DNA of 64,000 bases from an uncultured Actinomycetota bacterium (GTDB taxonomy: Bacteria; Actinomycetota; Actinomycetes; JAHEKZ01). Position numbers and translations under genes: made by a program. The notes beneath the pieces are model-generated. The model had not been told where the DNA came from, made no database searches, and saw nothing but the letters and a program-made list of their open reading frames with translations. Every line of letters starts with the position of its first letter. Positions within the stretch are counted from its first letter, which is position 1. This document shows, one piece after another, positions 179 through 26,281 of the stretch. The DNA lies in NCBI GenBank assembly GCA_963743915.1, contig CAVURN010000001.1:1-64000 (forward strand). The letters are read 5' to 3'.

Positions 179-1260
179 ATGGGAGCCTCCGGAGCGGCGA
201 GGCGTGGCGTCGCGCTGTTCCTCGTCGTAGCAGCAGTCGCAGCGTGCTCGGAGGGTGACCGCGACGACGGACGGCAGTCCCTCGGGTCGCCCAGCGCCGC
301 GTCGACCGCGGGGAAGGTCGCCCTCGTCGGCCGGCCCCTCCGCGTCGCGTTCCCGCTGTCGGAGCCAGCACTGCCGGAGATCCAGACGCTCAGGTCTCTC
401 GGTGGCGTCACAATGAAGGCCACACACACCGCCGACTGGATCATCGTGGCCTTCGGTCGTGCCTGGGTCACGGGTCGGGACAGGGAATCGGGGTCTTCGA
501 CGCGCGGACGGGTCGCTCCGAGGGTTCGGTCCCCGTGCCGAACGAACCCTGCGCGGCGGCAGCGGTCGGGTTTGGCGCGATCTGGTCGGCCACCTGCGGA
601 GACGTCCGGGGAGTTGTCCGCATCGATCCGCACCAGGCCCGGGTGACCGACAGTGTGGAGCTCGACTTCGCGCAGCCCGAATCCAGCGTCGGCGCAGGAG
701 AGGGTGCGGTGTGGGCCATTGCCAACGGGGCTGGCTGCTCCAACTGCGTCCTCGTGCGGATAGACCCCGGGACGGTCTCGATCACCGACCGGTTCCGGGT
801 GCCCTCCGGAGCGTCTGCGGTCCGCGCCGGGCTTGGCGGCGTCTGGATCACCTACTTCGGCGACGATCACGTCCTCCACGTGAACCCGACGAATGGTGCG
901 ATCGAAGCGGTGATCCCCGTCGGCGCCAAGCCTGCCTTTCTCGACATCGGCGGGGGCTCGATATGGGTCATGGCCTCTTACGACGGAGCCCTGTGCCGAA
1001 TCGATCCGCAGAGCAATCGGGTCCTCTCACGCACCGTTCTCGACCCGGGTGGTGGATACGGAGACCTCACGGTAGGGGACGGGTTCGTCTGGTGGCGCGG
1101 AGTCGAGGCGCTGGTGACCCAGGTCGACCAGCGTGACGGCACAGTGGTCCGCCGGATCGGGGTGGGCGGAGTGGGAGACGGCTCCGCGGCGGCGGGCTCC
1201 GGCACCTTGTGGATCTCAGCGCATGACGTGGCCAGGCTTTACCGAGTCGATGTGACCTAA
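179..1260 (+). CDS. Secreted beta-propeller lipoprotein (YncE/Vgb-like), one frameshift near 472-478
   Basis: Signal peptide with lipobox-like AVAAC in ORF 179..646. Repeated 'GxGAVW...RIDP' blades in ORF 535..1260. The frames join as ...AWVTG/GQGIGVFDARTG... Confidence 0.7.
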
Positions 1261-2018
1261 CGGCACACCATCAGCGGCGGAGATCCCAGCGGGCGGGGTC
1301 CTGCCCGTAGAAGTGCCTGGAGGACCACGTACAGGTCGGGACTCTCCTCGAACAGATCCTCACCGCGGGTGAAGAAGGCCTCGGTGGCCACGGCGAAGAA
1401 CTCGCTCGGACGAGTCGCGGCGTAGTCGGACAGTAGAGCGCTTCCTTGGCCCCGTCGCAGTGCCGAAAGCTGCCGCCCGCAGACGGTGATCCACCGATCG
1501 CGTTGCCGCGGGTCGGTGAACCGTGGCGTGCCGTCGAGTGTGCCGTCCTCGGCGTCGAGCATGTGAGCGAACTCGTGGAAGACGACGTTCTGCCCGCCGC
1601 GGGGGTGCCTGGCCTGGTGCTCGGCGACGTCCCAGGCGATGAACACCGGCCCTCGGGCAGACGTGTGACCCAGCACGGGGACGGCGTGGTCCTCGACCGT
1701 GCCCGGGATCGGTCCGGCCCGAGGGCCGGTCATGGTGATGGTTCCCGGGTGGACGACAACCGCGTGGACCAGGGGATAGACCGGGTCGGGCAGACCGGAC
1801 GCGATCAGGGCAGCGTGTCCGGCGATCGTTCCGCGCACCGTGTCGTCGAGGACGAAGTCGCGGGACGCCTCCCAGGTCACCTTGTCCAGCAGGTCAGCAG
1901 CGATGTGTTCGAGCCGGTGCTGCTCAGCAGCGGCCAGCAGAGTCCACTGCCAGAGCCGCTCGGTCACCACTTTGCGAAGTTCCGGAGTCAGCTCGCGCCG
2001 GCGTCGATGCAGAGCCAC
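1257..2018 (-). CDS. MtfA/YeeI-like (M90) zinc-dependent peptidase; probable frameshift in the last ~20 codons
   Basis: NVVFHEFAHMLD zincin motif and YAAT-x-PSEFFAVATEAFF. The family-typical C-terminus HFYGQDP is in another frame near 1300-1320. Start uncertain. Confidence 0.8.
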   Translation of the reverse strand: MALHRRRRELTPELRKVVTERLWQWTLLAAAEQHRLEHIAADLLDKVTWEASRDFVLDDTVRGTIAGHAALIASGLPDPVYPLVHAVVVHPGTITMTGPRAGPIPGTVEDHAVPVLGHTSARGPVFIAWDVAEHQARHPRGGQNVVFHEFAHMLDAEDGTLDGTPRFTDPRQRDRWITVCGRQLSALRRGQGSALLSDYAATRPSEFFAVATEAFFTRGEDLFEESPDLYVVLQALLRAGPRPLGSPPLMVCR

Positions 2019-22149: not shown

Positions 22150-22271
22150 GATGGCTCCGTCTCAGGTGGGTGCTGCAAGGAAGGGTGAGTCGCCTGGTGC
22201 GGCACGAACCCGGGGTGCGTCCGGCGAGCATCTGCTCGCCGCGCAGGACGGCGGGATGGAGCCCGGGTCCG

Positions 22272-22367
22272 TCAGACCATGCAGGCGCACATGCCGAAGG
22301 GCATGCGGATGCCGCAGCAACACATTCGCGCGCCGAGAGGCGTCACGTGGGCGGCGGTCGGAGTCAT
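22272..22367 (-). CDS. Leaderless Met/Cys-rich leader peptide of metY-metX (MTPTAAHVTPLGARMCCCGIRMPFGMCACMV)
   Basis: 31-aa ORF with 5 Met and 5 Cys; TACCCT (-10, 22374-22379)-N6-ATG; ends 122 nt upstream of metY. Confidence 0.8.
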   Translation of the reverse strand: MTPTAAHVTPLGARMCCCGIRMPFGMCACMV

Positions 22368-22471
22368 GCGTCGAGGGTAGAGACGTCGCGCCGCCGTGTC
22401 CAACCTTTGGGCAGTTGTATCAGGATGTGAGACGGCCGTCGGAAGAATGGATTATGACGCGGTGCAGTGCG

Positions 22472-22546
22472 GCGCCGACATGAGACTTGGCGTCGGATCC
22501 GGCGGGGAAGTGGATCAGGTTCCCACGCCAACCCTCACCTCGGTGT
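22472..22546. repeat. ~75-bp imperfect palindrome (REP-like), upstream flank of the AbiEi-nuclease gene
   Basis: Arms GCGCCGACATGAGACTTGGCGT / ACGCCAACCCTCACCTCGGTGT (16/22 complementary). Confidence 0.65.
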
Positions 22547-22655
22547 GGCCCAGGTCGATGAGTACCGACTGTCCACAGCGGTGTCGGCACATCGTCATCC
22601 AGAGCGGCACGGGCGCTGCCACCGTCACACCGCACACGAGGGCACTCTCCGGCAC

Positions 22656-23666
22656 GTGACCACGCCTGCACCGGACGGCATAGCGCAGCATCTGCTGGCG
22701 CGAGGTGCCGGCGCCTCGGCGGAGGAGCTGCGAGCTTGGGGGTTGTCGGACTGGGACATTCGTCGACTCGTGCGCGACGGCTCGCTCACCCGGAGTCGGC
22801 GTGGCCGGTACGTGCTGCCACTCTCGCCAGAACTGACGGATCGCTGGGCGCGCGCCCGTACCTCGCACTTACGGTGTCTGGCTTCCCTGGCCGGTTCCGA
22901 CGTGGTCGCCTGCAGACGTACCGCCGCACTGGTGTGGGGACTTCCGGTCTCATCGATTCCATCGCTGCCCGAGATCATCCGCCCACCCGGGAGTCATCGC
23001 CCCGGGGGGTCGCGGACGCTCCTCACCGACATCACTTCCGCGGACATCCGGTGGCGCAACGGAGTCCCGTTCACGTCCTTGGAGCGTACGGTCGTCGACG
23101 TCGCTCTTGACCTCCCTACGCCACTTGCACTGGTCACGGCCGACGCTGCACTCCGACGCGGTGCGGACGGGAGCCAGATGCTGGCGATGCTGTCGGAACG
23201 AGGTGCGGTGCGCGGCTGTCGCGAGGCACGTCGCACCCTGGCGTGGGCGGACGGTCACGCGGAGTCGCCCCTGGAGTCGCGCGGACGCGGGGAGCTGATG
23301 CTTCGCGGAGTCCCTCGTCCTCGGTGCAACGTAGTTCTGCGACTGGGTGACGTTGAGTTCCGGGTCGACACCCTGTGGGCACGCGAGGGGATTGTCGGAG
23401 AGGCGGACGGGAAGCGTAAGTACGACCGGGAAGGTCGACAGGTCGAACCCCTCTGGGCCGAGCGTCTGCGGCAAGGATGGCTAGAGGACGAGCTCGGCCT
23501 CCAGGTCGTCCGATGGATCGATGCTGAGGTGCGTCTGGCACCGGAGGGTCTCGCGCGGCGCTGGCGGCGACTGGAGGGCAGACGAGGAGGTCAGCTGTGG
23601 CTACCGCCGGCTGGGCTGGAGATCTCTCAGCGGGTCCTGCCGGCCCCCGGGGGCCAGCGGCGATGA
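22656..23666 (+). CDS. AbiEi-like N-terminal domain fused to a DUF559/Vsr-like PD-(D/E)xK nuclease domain
   Basis: LTRSRRGRY, TAALVWGL, TSLERTVVDVA, ESPLES, FRVD...GEADGKRKY and QVVRW motifs typical of this actinobacterial family. Confidence 0.8.
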   Translation: MTTPAPDGIAQHLLARGAGASAEELRAWGLSDWDIRRLVRDGSLTRSRRGRYVLPLSPELTDRWARARTSHLRCLASLAGSDVVACRRTAALVWGLPVSSIPSLPEIIRPPGSHRPGGSRTLLTDITSADIRWRNGVPFTSLERTVVDVALDLPTPLALVTADAALRRGADGSQMLAMLSERGAVRGCREARRTLAWADGHAESPLESRGRGELMLRGVPRPRCNVVLRLGDVEFRVDTLWAREGIVGEADGKRKYDREGRQVEPLWAERLRQGWLEDELGLQVVRWIDAEVRLAPEGLARRWRRLEGRRGGQLWLPPAGLEISQRVLPAPGGQRR

Positions 23667-23685
23667 GGCGAAGGCGGTCTGCCCT

Positions 23686-23755
23686 CACCGAGATGAGACC
23701 TGGTGTCGGATCTTCCCCTGGATCAGGGTCGAAACCAACGCCGAACCTCATGTCG
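23686..23755. repeat. ~70-bp imperfect palindrome (REP-like), downstream flank of the AbiEi-nuclease gene
   Basis: Arms CGAGATGAGACCTGGTGTCGG / CCAACGCCGAACCTCATGTCG, related to the arms at 22472-22546. Confidence 0.65.
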
Positions 23756-23815
23756 TTCGAACCCGTGTGTCGCACCGCGGGATCGGTCACGTCGTCACGC
23801 AGACTGTTCCGCAGA

Positions 23816-23859
23816 CGCAGAGAGGCCCCTCCAACTAGGCGATGGAGGGGCCTCCTGCG
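23816..23859 (-). terminator. Intrinsic terminator-like hairpin ending the candidate ncRNA
   Basis: GAGGCCCCTCCA (23822-23833) / TGGAGGGGCCTC (23843-23854), 12 bp perfect, plus CGCAG/CTGCG; minus-strand tail UCUGCGUCU. Confidence 0.7.
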
Positions 23860-24116
23860 GTCCGTCCGAGAACGGACCCACTGGCCTGCCCGAGGGCCGA
23901 CCAGGTGGCTCACCCGAGGGTGAACCATCGGCACACCCGAAGGTGAACCGACGACTCGACCGGAGTCGAGTCGGACTCCGCTGCGCTTCCCGTCGGTGGG
24001 ACTCGGTTGCCCTGGTCCCTCCGCCCGGTGGTCTCCCACCGGGATGACCCGTCGGTTTCCCTTCGGGTCGATCCTTGAGGTTTCCCTCTCGGACCGGGTG
24101 CGCCGTGCGGCGTCGT
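23816..24116 (-). ncRNA. Candidate ~300-nt multi-hairpin non-coding RNA of unknown family
   Basis: Nine abutting hairpins with loops GAAA, GAAA, GAGA, GCAA, then UCCG, UUCG, CUCG, CUCG, CUCG. G-U pairs only on the minus strand. Promoter upstream and terminator at the 3' end. Confidence 0.75.
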
Positions 24117-24122
24117 GGAGAA

Positions 24123-24152
24123 GTTCTATGCCCCGGTCACCAGGCCGCGCAA
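24123..24152 (-). promoter_or_regulatory. Putative sigma70-type promoter of the candidate ncRNA
   Basis: TTGCGC-N18-TAGAAC(T), preceded by an A/T-rich tract (24155-24184). The -10 is imperfect. Confidence 0.55.
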
Positions 24153-24183
24153 GGCTTTTCTCGAAGAATCTTCAGAACTTTCT

Positions 24184-24263
24184 TCACCCACAGGTTCGTC
24201 CACACGAAGCCCTGCGTGCGTCCCCAGGACGTCCCCAGGATCATCCACAATGCCTGTGCACGA
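24184..24263. promoter_or_regulatory. Cluster of DnaA-box-like 9-mers
   Basis: TCACCCACA 24184, TCGTCCACA 24196, GCGTCCCCA 24218, ACGTCCCCA 24229, TCATCCACA 24241, inverted TGTGCACGA 24255; consensus TT(A/G)TCCACA. Confidence 0.55.
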
Positions 24264-24297
24264 CGACGGCATCTGGCTGCGTGGAGGCGCCGGTGCG

Positions 24298-24789
24298 TCA
24301 GGCCTTGTCGGCGTCGATCGCGCGCTTGAAGGAGGCCTCGATCTCGCGCTCGGTCTCGGCGCGTCCCTCCCAGGTGGCGCCCTCGACGGACTTGCCCGGC
24401 TCGAGGTCCTTGTAGACCTCGAAGAAGTGCTGGATCTCGAGCTTGTCGAACTCCGGCATGTGGTGGATGTCGCGCAGGTGCTCCTTGCGCGGGTCGTGCG
24501 CGGGCACGCAGACGACCTTGTCGTCCCCGCCGGCCTCGTCGGTCATGCGGAACATGCCGATGGCCCGGCAGCGGATCACGCAGCCCGGGAAGGTCGGCTC
24601 GTCGAGCAGCACGAGGGCGTCGAGCGGGTCGCCGTCCTGGCCGAGAGTGTTCTCGATGAAGCCGTAGTCGGCCGGGTACCGCGTCGACGTGAAGAGCATC
24701 CGGTCGAGGCGGATCCGACCGGTCTCCTTGTCGAGCTCGTACTTGTTGCGGTGTCCCTGCGGGATCTCCACGAAGACGTCGAAGTCCAC
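24298..24789 (-). CDS. ppa: Inorganic pyrophosphatase (family I)
   Basis: RNKYE, YPADYG, DGDPLD and YKDLE motifs. Confidence 0.97.
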
Positions 24790-24898
24790 GACGGTCCCTT
24801 CCGAATGGGCTGGGGGGCGGTTCACGCGGTGGCTTAGGGTCGCTACGCGCAAGATCCAGTGTCCCGTATCGCACCCGGTCCACGAGGAGGGGGTCTCG

Positions 24899-26281
24899 AT
24901 GCCACGAGCCCGCTGGTGGGTCGTGGGTGCGCTCGCCCTGCTCACGGTGACCGTGCTGCTCCTGGACGCCGCCGGCGTCATCTTCGAGGCGGAGCCCGGT
25001 GCCGAACCCCCGTCACCGCTGGTGCTGCCGCAGGGGCTGGACGCCGAGGCCGCCGTCGCCGCACCCTTCGAGCCCACGGGAGGCCGGCTCGACGCGCGGG
25101 TGGTGACCGAGGTCCGCCGGCAGCTGGACGCTGACGCCCTCGGCCCCTCGGTCCACGCTCAGGTCGTCCCCCTCGGCCTGCCCGCGGGCGTGGCCAGACC
25201 TGCGCTCGGCGTCGATGCGGACGCGCCGGCGGCGCCGGCGTCCACCCTCAAGCTCTGGACGGCGATCGCCGTGCTCGATGCCTTTCCGGTCGAGACCCGG
25301 CTGCAGACCTCCGTGGTGTGGGACGAGGGGAAGGGGCGACTCGTCCTGGTCGGCGGTGGTGACACCACGCTCACCACCGAGCAGGCAACGGGTGTCGCTA
25401 CCCCTTCGTTGGAACGGTTGGCCGCCGTCACCGCCCGACGGTTGGCCCGTCTCGACGCGGACGAGGTGCGGCTCGCCTACGACGACTCGCTGTTCACCGG
25501 GCCGTCGGTGTCACCGCAGTGGGAGGACATCTACGTCAGCTCGGGCGTCATCGCGCCGGTCTCCGCGCTGATGGCCGACCAGGGACGCGTCACCGCCGAT
25601 GCGGACACCCGCTACCCCGATCCCGCCCTCGGCGCGGCCGACGCCTTCGCCGACCTGCTCGAGGAGGACGGCATCGAGATCCGCGGATCCGTGCGCGCGA
25701 CCGGGACCACCGACGACGATCCGCTGGCCAGCGTGGAGTCGGAGCCGATGCTCGACCTCGTCGAACGGATGCTCCGCGACAGCGACAACCAGCTCGCGGA
25801 GTCCCTGGGACGCCTCGCGGCGTCCGAGCAGGGCGGGCCGGCCAGCTTCGTCGGTGCGGCGGCAGCGCTGCTGGACGCAGCCGAGCAGCGAGGCGCCCTC
25901 ATCGACGGCGCAGTGGTGCACGACGCCAGTGGGCTCTCGCGGCAGGACCGGATGCCTGCCGCCGCCACTGTCGAAGCCCTGCTTGCTGCGGCCACCGAGC
26001 CGGCGCTGACGCCCGTGCTGAGCGGGCTTCCGGTGGCGGGTTTCGACGGCACCCTTGCGGACCGGTTCTCGGACGCCGGCTCCGAGGAGGCGGCCGGTCT
26101 GATCCGTGCCAAGACAGGCACTCTCACCGGGATCTCTGCGGAGGCCGGGGTCGCCACGACGTGTGCCGGCGATCTGGTCGCCTACGCCTTCGTCGCCGAC
26201 GAGGTGGTCGACACGCTCGCCGCGCGCGCGTCCCTCGATGATGCGGCCGCCGCCCTGACGTCCTGTCCCGCTCGTGGCTGA
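24899..26281 (+). CDS. dacB: D-alanyl-D-alanine carboxypeptidase/endopeptidase (PBP4, S13)
   Basis: PASTLK, SDN and AKTGTL motifs; synteny with ppa and tilS. Confidence 0.92.

What the first reader, a model, noticed from the sequence alone, without database searches (positions are those of the whole stretch)
23816..24152. Candidate novel ~300-nt ncRNA: four GNRA hairpins then five YNCG hairpins, with its own promoter and terminator
Seen on the minus strand, 5' to 3': H1 24096-24069 CGGUCC-GA-GAGG[GAAA]CCUC-AA-GGAUCG; H2 24068-24047 ACCCG-AA-GG[GAAA]CC-GA-CGGGU; H3 24043-24024 CCCGGUGG[GAGA]CCACCGGG; H4 24023-23994 with core GGGAC-CA-GG[GCAA]CC-GA-GUCCC. A 20-nt linker follows, then H5 23973-23952 CGACUCGAC[UCCG]GUCGAGUCG; H6 23951-23928 UCGGU-U-CACC[UUCG]GGUG-U-GCCGA; H7 23927-23906 UGGUUCACC[CUCG]GGUGAGCCA; H8 23904-23881 CUGGUC-G-GCC[CUCG]GGC-A-GGCCAG; H9 23878-23859 GGUCCGUU[CUCG]GACGGACC; and a 12+5-bp terminator hairpin. 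The hairpins are 20-30 nt, abut with 0-3 nt spacers and differ in stem sequence. Stable RNA tetraloops and G-U wobbles all favour the minus strand. Three of the four GNRA hairpins repeat a 2x2 A-rich internal loop. TTGCGC-N18-TAGAAC lies just upstream, and no credible ORF covers the region. Inference: a modular, multivalent RNA such as a protein sponge or scaffold with two classes of binding sites, or a precursor processed into hairpin units. I do not recognise it as tRNA, SRP, RNase P, tmRNA, 6C or Ms1. It converges on the AbiEi-nuclease gene, but a functional link is unproven.
Basis: partly seen in the sequence, partly recalled or inferred. Interest (0 to 1): 0.88.

Follow-up and report, generated by a model that had tools for sequence, protein, structure and literature searches.

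The report
Structured small RNA behind DnaA boxes
This is a real, conserved, roughly 300-base non-coding RNA gene made almost wholly of hairpins, found only in one family of uncultured actinobacteria, and its promoter sits behind sites that look like those of the replication initiator DnaA, so it may link DNA replication to an RNA regulator.

Summary
All nine hairpins, the terminator hairpin and the TTGCGC-N18-TAGAAC pair lie at the stated coordinates on the minus strand. The fold is far more stable than shuffles (z -9.8).

It is a real RNA gene. Homologues occur in 14 of 20 genomes of one family of uncultured Actinomycetes and on 4 metagenome contigs. None was found in other families of the class. 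On the alignment of the 14 long forms, 20 of 49 pairs in the 5' domain change on both sides. Loops stay GNRA on the sense strand only. Whole contigs identical to the window occur in 4 of 4 metatranscriptome runs. Rfam has no match.

First, the "linker" is one strand of a closing stem that encloses the four GNRA hairpins. Second, six helically phased DnaA-box-like sites and an AT-rich stretch lie upstream, at a fixed distance from the -10 (108-110 nt in 18 of 18 homologues). In this genome the same motif clusters in only four other places: oriC, upstream of dnaA, upstream of dnaB, and one further promoter region.

The best reading is a DnaA-responsive, abundant, protein-binding RNA. The binding partner and function are unknown, and no link to AbiEi is supported.

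The parts
24184..24261 (-). Array of six DnaA-box-like sites. Box0 24261-24254 is inverted. Box1 24249-24241 TGTGGATGA, box2 24237-24229 TGGGGACGT, box3 24226-24218 TGGGGACGC, box4 24204-24196 TGTGGACGA and box5 24192-24184 TGTGGGTGA all point towards the promoter. Starts are spaced 12, 11, 22 and 12 nt, so all lie on one helix face.
   Evidence: The box cores are the invariant columns of the upstream alignment of 10 genomes. The layout is the same in 18 of 18 homologues, with box2 to -10 at 108-110 nt. The reverse complement matches TTGTCCACA, the high-affinity DnaA box of M. tuberculosis and S. coelicolor (PMC4285127, Table 1), at 7-8 of 9 positions in boxes 1 and 4; one relative has an exact match. 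Genome-wide, TG[TG]GGA[CT] forms only 5 clusters of 4 or more in 200 nt. Four of them are this locus, oriC, upstream of dnaA and upstream of dnaB. Random placement gives a mean of 0.07 clusters.
24155..24184 (-). AT-rich stretch between the last box and the -35 (AAGAAAGTTCTGAAGATTCTTCGAGAAAAG). It is UP-element-like.
   Evidence: It stays A/T-rich in all aligned relatives of a 70% G+C genome. Its function is inferred.
24123..24152 (-). Predicted promoter: -35 TTGCGC 24152-24147, 18-nt spacer, -10 TAGAAC 24128-24123. The predicted start is about 24116.
   Evidence: CTTGCGC and TA.AA are invariant in 10 of 10 same-genus sequences while the spacer between them varies freely. The pair is kept in the two other genera as CTTGCGG or CTTGCCA plus TAGAAC. 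The sigma-70 consensus scan does not call it. The start site is not mapped.
23974..24114 (-). Domain I. Closing stem P1 (24114-24096 pairs with 23991-23974) encloses four GNRA-capped hairpins: H1 24096-24069, H2 24068-24047, H3 24043-24024 and H4 24023-23994. An alternative local 5' hairpin H0 is possible at 24112-24101.
   Evidence: MFE fold. Covariance-model alignment of 14 long forms: 91% of cells paired against 28-46% when partners are slid; 20 of 49 pairs change on both sides; 0 of 500 shuffles reach the observed values. The loops stay GNRA while their sequence changes: GCAA 46, GUAA 6, GAAA 3, GAGA 2, GCGA 1, with 0 on the antisense strand.
23859..23973 (-). Domain II: five abutting YNCG-capped hairpins H5-H9 (UCCG, UUCG, CUCG, CUCG, CUCG).
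   Evidence: MFE fold. Relatives have 1-5 such hairpins with different stem sequences, always 3' of the GNRA hairpins. Pairs with changes on both sides appear in the first and last of them.
23817..23858 (-). Terminator hairpin (GCAGGAGGCCCCUCC ... GGAGGGGCCUCUCUGC) with a conserved loop and a weak U-tract.
   Evidence: It is nearly invariant across the genus, and pair 309-319 of alignment A2 switches A-U to C-G in 3 of 10. The terminator scan does not call it.
24298..24807 (-). ppa (inorganic pyrophosphatase), the co-directional upstream neighbour. Context only.
   Evidence: Pfam PF00719, E 4.3e-58. It lies next to the RNA in 10 of 10 same-genus loci tested and in both G010 copies, but not in genera g2 and g3.

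Best explanation
This is an independently transcribed, highly structured non-coding RNA gene of about 300 nt on the minus strand, from roughly 24116 to 23817. It is confined to one family of uncultured Actinomycetes. Its promoter (TTGCGC-N18-TAGAAC, preceded by an AT-rich UP-like stretch) lies at a fixed distance behind six helically phased sites that match the DnaA box. DnaA therefore most likely sets how much of the RNA is made (inferred). The RNA has two parts. In the 5' domain, a closing stem holds a junction that displays four hairpins (two in the short forms), each capped by GG-GNRA-CY. The 3' part is a string of one to five very stable YNCG hairpins followed by a terminator hairpin. The most likely mode of action (inferred, not shown) is a stable, abundant protein-binding RNA. 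The repeated GNRA hairpins would be the multivalent binding sites that sequester or scaffold a still unknown protein. The YNCG string and the terminator hairpin would protect the 3' end from exonucleases. My confidence differs by step: real RNA gene with a conserved fold about 0.9; boxes are DnaA sites about 0.7; protein sponge or scaffold about 0.3.
For: Fold: z -9.77 on the minus strand and weaker on the plus strand.

Conservation: covariance model R1 finds one copy in 14 of 20 genomes of the family. The box-pattern scan of metagenome contigs added 4 more.

Covariation: RNAalifold gives 23 of 75 pairs with compensatory change over the whole RNA. For the 5' domain the figures are 14 of 50 on the MAFFT alignment and 20 of 49 on the model-fitted alignment, with 91% of cells paired against 28-46% for slid partners.

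Strand: there are 58 GG-GNRA-CY words on the sense strand and 0 on the antisense strand in 18 RNAs. Many G-U pairs would be A-C mismatches on the other strand.

Order: in 11 of 14 long forms the MFE alone gives four GNRA loops, then only YNCG-type loops, then the terminator. All 4 folded short forms give two GCAA loops first.

RNA libraries: 6 metatranscriptome runs from 4 studies hold 0.38-0.43 of the words of 23750-24350, against 0.83-0.92 in 14 runs not on record as RNA (13 marked 'DNA?', one unmarked). In 4 of 4 runs laid (4 studies), a whole contig with no difference from the window lies inside 23848-24135. The contigs stop within 3 nt of each other at 23848-23850, with no loose end. The tool rates this a weak hint of a discrete RNA.

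Promoter and boxes: the hexamers and box cores are invariant while the spacers vary, and the geometry is fixed in 18 of 18. The boxes, promoter and RNA stay together in genera where the unit is not beside ppa.

Box identity: the motif forms only 5 clusters in the genome, including oriC, upstream of dnaA and upstream of dnaB, against 0.07 expected. It matches TTGTCCACA (PMC4285127, Table 1).

Not a housekeeping RNA: SRP RNA, RNase P RNA and tmRNA are found elsewhere in the genome.

Non-coding: ORFs over the region have no Pfam or NCBIfam match, and homologues differ by whole hairpins.
Against: No experiment bears on function, and no partner protein or conserved neighbouring gene was found.

Contigs cannot show strand, ends or level, and RNA libraries can carry DNA. 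One of the four RNA contigs runs to 24135, 19 nt upstream of the predicted start.

The sigma-70 scan finds no promoter in 23000-25000 and does not call the terminator. The -10 ends in C or A, not T.

The closing stem P1 shows 0 of 14 pairs with change on both sides within the genus. Its support comes from by-eye comparison with the short forms, and a local hairpin H0 competes with it.

Alignment A4 was fitted to the model, so it leans towards the structure. The sequences are close kin, so the shuffle controls overstate significance.

DnaA binding is inferred from sequence alone. Boxes 2 and 3 (TGGGGAC) are poor matches to the 9-mer. Another protein that binds origin regions, such as MtrA in M. 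tuberculosis (passage in PMC4285127), is not excluded.

The RNA is missing from three fairly complete genomes of the family: G016 (100% complete), G017 (96%) and G018 (90%). It is therefore dispensable.
Confidence: 0.5

Rival explanations
1. The RNA is an RNA-polymerase-binding RNA, a functional analogue of 6S or Ms1 for this lineage. It would be abundant, about 300 nt long and growth-phase controlled, and would sequester RNA polymerase core or holoenzyme.
For: The size matches Ms1 (about 300 nt) and the phylum is right (Ms1 paper PMC9130861, passages). The genome has no Rfam 6S match. The 5' and 3' parts of domain I form a long closing stem. The RNA is present in metatranscriptomes.
Against: There is no central bubble flanked by long helices. 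The core is a junction of four capped hairpins. Ms1 synteny (a HAD-IB hydrolase or oxidoreductase neighbour, PMC9130861) is absent in all three genomic contexts seen. HAD-IB genes lie elsewhere in the genome. [quoted passage not shown]
Confidence: 0.12
2. The box array is mainly a chromosomal DnaA-control locus that titrates or recycles DnaA, like datA, DARS or the Bacillus DnaA-box clusters. The strong transcription unit beside it would tune or insulate it, and the RNA product would have little function of its own.
For: There are six phased boxes in a non-origin locus. dnaA lies on another contig. Such clusters outside oriC are known (recalled from memory; also the titles and abstracts listed).
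Against: The RNA carries its own strong constraints: loop class and pairs are maintained by compensatory change, and hairpin order and positions are fixed. An insulator or by-product would not need these. The fixed 108-110-nt distance to the -10 is the geometry expected of promoter control.
Confidence: 0.15
3. The upstream repeats are sites of another DNA-binding regulator, for example an OmpR-family response regulator such as MtrA that also acts at origin regions, and not of DnaA.
For: Direct repeats with an 11-nt phase are typical of such regulators (recalled from memory). MtrA binds within the M. tuberculosis oriC (PMC4285127, passage). Boxes 2 and 3 match the DnaA 9-mer poorly.
Against: Boxes 1 and 4 match TTGTCCACA at 7-8 of 9 positions, and exactly in one relative. 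The MtrA box GTCACAGCG differs by an insertion. The same two box forms occur in the dnaA-dnaN spacer and upstream of dnaA and dnaB.
Confidence: 0.1
4. The region is a 3' UTR or terminator stack of ppa. Alternatively it is a precursor that is cut into hairpin units, such as a type III antitoxin-like repeat RNA.
For: It is co-directional with ppa, and no terminator lies between them. One RNA contig reaches 19 nt upstream of the predicted start. The hairpins abut with spacers of 0-3 nt.
Against: The unit keeps its own conserved promoter hexamers. It occurs away from ppa in two genera. The RNA contigs span 256-287 nt, not single hairpin units. The hairpins are not sequence repeats, and no toxin gene is conserved beside it. 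The AbiEi hit is below cut-off.
Confidence: 0.08
5. The feature acts only at the DNA level, as a cluster of palindromes (REP-like or a cruciform) with no RNA function.
For: Both strands fold far better than shuffles.
Against: The features are asymmetric between strands. GNRA and YNCG loops occur on one strand only, with 58 against 0 GG-GNRA-CY words, and G-U pairs are frequent. There is a single copy per genome. The sequence is present in RNA libraries.
Confidence: 0.03

Closest known systems
CsrB / RsmY / RsmZ-type protein-sponge RNAs
   Same: The RNA is non-coding and almost fully structured. It carries a short loop motif repeated on several hairpins, the number of hairpins differs between relatives, and a terminator hairpin lies at the 3' end.
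   Different: The repeated unit is a closed GNRA tetraloop on GG/CY, not a GGA in an open loop. Actinobacteria are not known to have CsrA (recalled from memory). No partner is known, and a second array of YNCG hairpins has no counterpart.
Ms1 and 6S RNA (RNA-polymerase-binding RNAs)
   Same: It is an actinobacterial RNA of about 300 nt, probably abundant, with a closing stem formed by distant 5' and 3' segments (PMC9130861, passages).
   Different: There is no open-promoter-like central bubble. HAD-IB hydrolase synteny is absent. Rfam 6S gives no match. The short forms are only about 160 nt.
DnaA-box clusters outside oriC (E. coli datA and DARS, B. subtilis DnaA-box clusters) and DnaA-regulated promoters (dnaA, nrd)
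   Same: Several DnaA-box-like 9-mers are closely and helically phased at a non-origin locus. The moderately good boxes 1 and 4 are each followed by weaker ones, which suggests cooperative filling. The comparison itself is recalled from memory.
   Different: Here the array sits at a fixed distance upstream of the promoter of a structured non-coding RNA. The searches (listings of titles and abstracts only) turned up no described DnaA-box-driven small RNA.
rRNA-type strong promoters (UP element plus phased upstream activator sites)
   Same: An AT-rich stretch lies directly upstream of the -35, and phased protein sites lie further upstream. The comparison is recalled from memory.
   Different: The upstream sites resemble DnaA boxes, not Fis sites. 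The strength of the promoter has not been measured.

Membership tests
Any Rfam 15 family | Score at or above the family's gathering threshold with its covariance model | tested here: not met
   There were 0 matches in the 64-kb window at gathering thresholds. At E up to 10 in 23500-24500, only 3 matches appeared, at 7-17 bits against thresholds of 90-160.
6S RNA | Long, mostly double-stranded rod with a large central bubble; match to RF00013 | tested here: not met
   RF00013 has no match in the genome at E up to 1. The fold is a junction of capped hairpins followed by a hairpin string.
Ms1 RNA | Conserved neighbourhood with a HAD-IB hydrolase or oxidoreductase gene (PMC9130861, passages) | tested here: not met
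   The neighbours are ppa, an unnamed ORF and metY in the window, and GcvT, hemerythrin or a beta-lactamase-like gene in genus g3. HAD-IB genes lie at other loci.
Ms1 RNA | Ms1-like fold (central bubble plus short terminal hairpins) and binding to RNA polymerase core | tested here: inconclusive
   The predicted fold has no central bubble, but Ms1 folds were defined in the paper from suboptimal structures. Binding cannot be tested with these tools.
Csr/Rsm-type sponge RNA | Multiple GGA motifs in hairpin loops that bind CsrA/RsmA | tested here: not met
   The loops are GNRA and YNCG tetraloops. No search for a csrA gene was made.
Type III toxin-antitoxin antitoxin RNA (ToxI-like) | Tandem near-identical sequence repeats next to a toxin endoribonuclease gene | tested here: not met
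   The hairpins differ in stem sequence. Blastn finds the stretch once in the genome. The downstream flank is not conserved in relatives. The AbiEi_4 hit is below cut-off, and NCBIfam gives no hit.
DnaA-box cluster or DnaA-controlled promoter | Several 9-mers matching the lineage's DnaA box, of the kind found in the organism's own oriC | tested here: met
   Boxes 1 and 4 match TTGTCCACA at 7-8 of 9 positions (consensus from PMC4285127, Table 1). The same GTCCACA and GTCCCCA forms cluster in the dnaA-dnaN spacer and upstream of dnaA and dnaB. The genome has 5 clusters against 0.07 expected.
DnaA-box cluster or DnaA-controlled promoter | DnaA protein binds the sites and changes transcription | not testable with these tools
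   This needs EMSA or footprinting and a reporter with mutated boxes.

The most novel reading that the evidence does not exclude
This would be the first RNA output of the DnaA regulon. Cooperative filling of six phased boxes by DnaA would switch on a very strong promoter, so the level of this stable RNA would report the replication-initiation potential of the cell. Through its multivalent GNRA hairpins, the RNA would then sequester or assemble a growth or cell-cycle factor, or dock into helices of other copies to form a higher-order RNA assembly. Either way it would feed replication status into post-transcriptional control in a lineage that lacks Hfq/CsrA-type systems.
Probability: 0.2. Interest if true: 0.85.

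Novelty: new variant of a known kind. Interest (0 to 1): 0.66.

Why it matters
Actinobacteria have few understood regulatory RNAs and no known general RNA chaperone or sponge system. This finding gives a clean new RNA family with clear architecture, covariation and signs of expression in nature. It also has a very regular promoter region that points to the replication initiator DnaA as its regulator. If DnaA does drive it, the locus offers a direct, testable link between replication initiation and RNA-based regulation, which I did not find described in my searches. The repeated GNRA hairpins are a defined bait for finding a new RNA-binding protein. The main limit is that all carriers are uncultured, so tests must use surrogate hosts or purified parts.

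Tried and rejected
Rfam at gathering and at permissive thresholds gave nothing useful. The consensus promoter and terminator scan called neither element.

A blastn search with the box and promoter DNA over 401 genomes of the class gave 5 hits outside the family. On inspection all were 24-33-nt chance matches without boxes or RNA. The 'order' search returned the same 20 genomes as the 'family' search and added nothing.

Model R2, built from 5 short forms, found nothing outside the family in 151 genomes of the class. It also hit only 1 of the 4 long-form (genus g1) genomes in that sample, so its reach is small.

The genome-contig scan with the two-box pattern gave 52 loci, and 14 carry the RNA. 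These 14 probably duplicate the carrier genomes already found (inferred from identical scores and hit lengths; not cross-checked). Roughly half of the rest are gut Clostridia MAG contigs without the RNA. The metagenome scan gave 86 stretches, of which 80 were listed and searched, and 4 carry the RNA.

Search for an Ms1 candidate of the genome itself: two HAD-IB genes were found, but no clear RNA-bearing spacer lies beside them and Rfam gave only chance hits. This remains inconclusive.

Other clusters of GG-GNRA-CY that might be natural targets which the RNA mimics: only two places have 3 words, both inside probable coding sequence and within chance expectation.

Cover of the flanks in RNA runs: no contig of the four RNA runs lies on 23400-23847 or 24148-24389. 

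Composition around the locus shows nothing unusual. Supplementary tables of the Ms1 paper list 824 species and might include relatives of this lineage.

Two genomes flagged as unpublished (G025, G033) were among the genomes searched and among the class-level genomes listed. Neither had a significant match at the locus (in one search, at E up to 10, only short matches of E about 0.07-0.24 elsewhere). No positive claim rests on them.
Full report
OBSERVATION. These are four GNRA-capped hairpins (H1 24096-24069, H2 24068-24047, H3 24043-24024, H4 24023-23994), five YNCG-capped hairpins (H5-H9, 23973-23859), a 42-nt terminator hairpin (23858-23817), and TTGCGC (24152-24147) followed 18 nt later by TAGAAC (24128-24123). 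The minimum-free-energy fold of 24130-23800 reproduces all ten hairpins. Its energy is -207.8 kcal/mol against -150.1 +/- 5.9 for shuffles (z -9.77; 0 of 100 shuffles as good). The plus strand folds less well (-188.9, z -6.57). The '20-nt linker' (23993-23974) pairs with the 5' leader (24114-24096), so H1-H4 sit in a junction closed by a stem, P1. The simple consensus scan calls neither the promoter nor the terminator.

IT IS NOT A KNOWN RNA OR A GENE FOR A PROTEIN. Rfam 15 gives no match in the 64-kb window at gathering thresholds and only three chance-level matches at E up to 10. SRP RNA, RNase P RNA and tmRNA are found elsewhere in the same genome, and 6S is not found. ORFs that overlap the region have no Pfam or NCBIfam match. 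The surroundings are the usual actinobacterial ppa / dacB / zincin / hpt / ftsH block. The RNA lies downstream of ppa and is co-directional with it.

RELATIVES. The genome (2.9 Mb, 70% G+C, 5 contigs) belongs to a family, which is also the whole order, of 20 species-level genomes in the held collection. Public titles call them uncultured Actinomycetes or Actinomycetota MAGs. Blastn finds the region downstream of ppa in nine other genomes of the genus at 70-77% identity.

A covariance model of the 5' domain (R1) finds one copy in 14 of 20 genomes. By genus, not counting the window's genome, the counts are g1 10 of 13, g2 1 of 2, g3 2 of 2, g4 0 of 1 and g5 0 of 1. Three of the six non-carriers are only 69-76% complete. 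G010 has two copies, each beside a ppa, which probably reflects two strains in one bin. In G016, G017 and G018 the sequence downstream of ppa holds neither boxes nor RNA.

Scans of public collections with a two-box pattern added four metagenome copies and no carrier outside the family. Neither blastn over 401 genomes of the class nor a second model over 151 found it in another family. The correct wording is 'not found in those searched'.

ARCHITECTURE IS CONSERVED AND MODULAR. The 14 long forms (233-301 nt) all have four GG-GNRA-CY words at nearly fixed positions (about 29, 54, 79 and 108). These are followed by two to five YNCG hairpins and then the terminator. In 11 of 14 the MFE alone shows exactly this order; in G008, G005 and G010a the MFE departs at one or more hairpins although the words are present.

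Five short forms of about 160-180 nt (genera g2 and g3 and two metagenome contigs) have the same 5' leader. They carry two GCAA hairpins, one or two YNCG hairpins and the terminator.

Loop sequence changes but loop class does not. The counts are GCAA 46, GUAA 6, GAAA 3, GAGA 2 and GCGA 1, all on the sense strand, with 0 on the antisense strand. The window's own copy is the one with GAAA, GAAA, GAGA and GCAA. The constraint is therefore on the GNRA fold, not on a sequence that would pair with a target. In G000 no other place has four such words within 130 nt.

COVARIATION. RNAalifold on the whole RNA from 10 genomes gives 75 pairs, 23 of them with compensatory change. For the 5' domain with a structure I specified, the MAFFT alignment gives 86% of cells paired against 30-45% for slid partners, and 14 of 50 pairs change on both sides (2 of 500 shuffles reach this). 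The model-fitted alignment of 14 gives 91% against 28-46%, and 20 of 49 pairs (0 of 500).

Several caveats apply. The second alignment leans towards the model, and the sequences are kin. The signal sits in H1-H4 (16 of the 35 pairs in helices 4-8). P1 has none within the genus (0 of 14 pairs). P1 gains support only from comparison with the short forms, where an A-U of the long forms is U-A and a C-A mismatch becomes C-G. That comparison was read by eye, and the short forms pair at 87%. A local 5' hairpin (CGCC-GNRA-GGCG, 24112-24101) competes with P1 and also changes compensatorily in genus g2. I cannot decide between them.

SIGNS OF EXPRESSION. Fourteen runs not on record as RNA (13 marked 'DNA?', one unmarked; mostly sediment metagenomes) hold 0.83-0.92 of the sampled words of 23750-24350. 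Six metatranscriptome runs from four studies hold 0.38-0.43, which is about the length of the RNA.

I laid four of these runs, one per study. Each has a whole contig with no difference from the window: 23849-24135 (287 nt), 23850-24112, 23850-24105 and 23848-24107. The contigs stop within 3 nt of each other at the foot of the terminator hairpin, without loose ends. The tool rates this a weak hint of a discrete RNA.

Contigs show neither strand nor true ends. The stops coincide with the points where the sequence becomes identical among relatives, so they may be assembly breaks. One contig runs 19 nt beyond the predicted start. Expression is therefore likely but not proven. The strand rests on sequence features: GNRA and YNCG loops and G-U pairs.

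THE UPSTREAM REGION. Between the ppa stop and the -35, the alignment shows islands of invariance. One is an inverted site (24261-24254). Five are co-oriented sites: TGTGGATGA (24249-24241), TGGGGACGT (24237-24229), TGGGGACGC (24226-24218), TGTGGACGA (24204-24196) and TGTGGGTGA (24192-24184). Their starts are 12, 11, 22 and 12 nt apart, so all lie on one face of the helix. An AT-rich 30-mer follows (24184-24155), and then the -35.

The layout is the same in 18 of 18 homologues in which I could mark it. The distance from box 2 to the -10 is 108-110 nt, including in the two genera where the unit is not next to ppa. Boxes, promoter and RNA thus travel as one unit.

Read on the other strand, boxes 1 and 4 are T(C/T)(G/A)TCCACA. 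This is the actinobacterial high-affinity DnaA box TTGTCCACA with one or two changes (PMC4285127, Table 1), and one relative has it exactly.

I scanned the genome for TG[TG]GGA[CT] on both strands. There are 1158 hits but only five 200-nt windows with four or more. The five are: the dnaA-dnaN spacer, the region upstream of dnaA, the region just upstream of dnaB, a divergent promoter region between a DUF5679 gene and a YgjP/SprT-like peptidase gene, and this locus. Random placement gives a mean of 0.07 such clusters. dnaA lies on another contig, so this locus is not oriC.

I conclude that these are DnaA boxes (about 0.7). Two moderately good sites, boxes 1 and 4, are each followed by weaker ones. 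This is the arrangement that elsewhere gives cooperative, ATP-DnaA-dependent filling (recalled from memory). Binding itself is untested, and another origin-binding regulator is not excluded.

WHAT IT MOST LIKELY DOES.
- Shown: this is a conserved, single-copy RNA gene restricted to one lineage. Its fold is under selection at the RNA level, it has a fixed promoter region, and it is present in environmental RNA.
- Inferred: DnaA bound upstream controls a strong promoter.
- Inferred more weakly: the RNA acts by binding protein. It is almost entirely paired, which leaves little room for base-pairing with targets. Its conserved features are the shape of four (or two) tetraloop hairpins held on a junction, and the copy number of units changes between relatives as in sponge RNAs.
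- The YNCG hairpins vary in number (1-5) and even in form; G003 has one 69-nt elaboration. I read them as a nuclease-resistant 3' module rather than a second class of binding sites.

No partner can be named, and no neighbouring gene is conserved across the three contexts.

COMPARISON AND NOVELTY. It works most like a Csr/Rsm-type sponge in layout, but fails that family's defining feature of GGA loops. It shares size and phylum with Ms1, but lacks the Ms1 neighbourhood and a central bubble. It is not a type III antitoxin: it has no sequence repeats and no conserved toxin, and the AbiEi hit is below cut-off. The box array resembles known DnaA-box clusters and DnaA-regulated promoters, but here it precedes a structured non-coding RNA. 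In two full-text searches (listings only) I found no description of such a case.

I rate it a new RNA family and a new variant of known kinds: a multivalent structured sRNA, and a DnaA-controlled promoter. Interest is moderately high. The RNA itself is a solid new motif, the DnaA link is unexpected and testable, and the lineage is uncultured.

Noticed in passing
G000 contig C3:381426-381567 (L056 2427-2568): A cluster of five DnaA-box-like sites (GTCCACA and GTCCCCA forms) lies directly upstream of the dnaB helicase gene (381625-383052). This suggests that DnaA controls dnaB in this lineage.
   Followed up: partly
G000 contig C1:464755-464887 (L057 2256-2388): Another phased cluster of five DnaA-box-like sites is followed by an A-rich stretch much like the one before the RNA promoter. 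It lies between a DUF5679 gene and a YgjP/SprT-like metallopeptidase gene.
   Followed up: partly
window 22200-23800: The stretch between metY and the RNA has no ORF with the genome's usual third-position G+C. The 399-aa ORF 22467-23666 (+) has only a sub-threshold AbiEi_4 hit and no NCBIfam hit, and the flank is not conserved in relatives.
   Followed up: partly
L028 and L036 (G010 contigs C6 and C15): One MAG carries two diverged copies of ppa plus the whole box, promoter and RNA unit on two contigs. This is more likely two strains binned together than a duplication.
   Followed up: no
L034 about 1250-1350, minus strand (G014): In genus g2 a second terminator-like hairpin with the same CCCCUCC...GGAGGGG arms follows the first about 30 nt downstream.
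   Followed up: no
L059-L110 (genome-contig scan): The pattern TGGGGAY-N4-TGGGGAYRCAMGC also matches about 25 contigs of gut Clostridia MAGs that lack the RNA. It is presumably a conserved sequence of another kind.
   Followed up: no
L002 and L155 (G003 and a metagenome contig): In place of the last YNCG hairpins these copies have a single 69-nt extended hairpin capped by CUCG. This shows how freely the 3' module is rebuilt.
   Followed up: no
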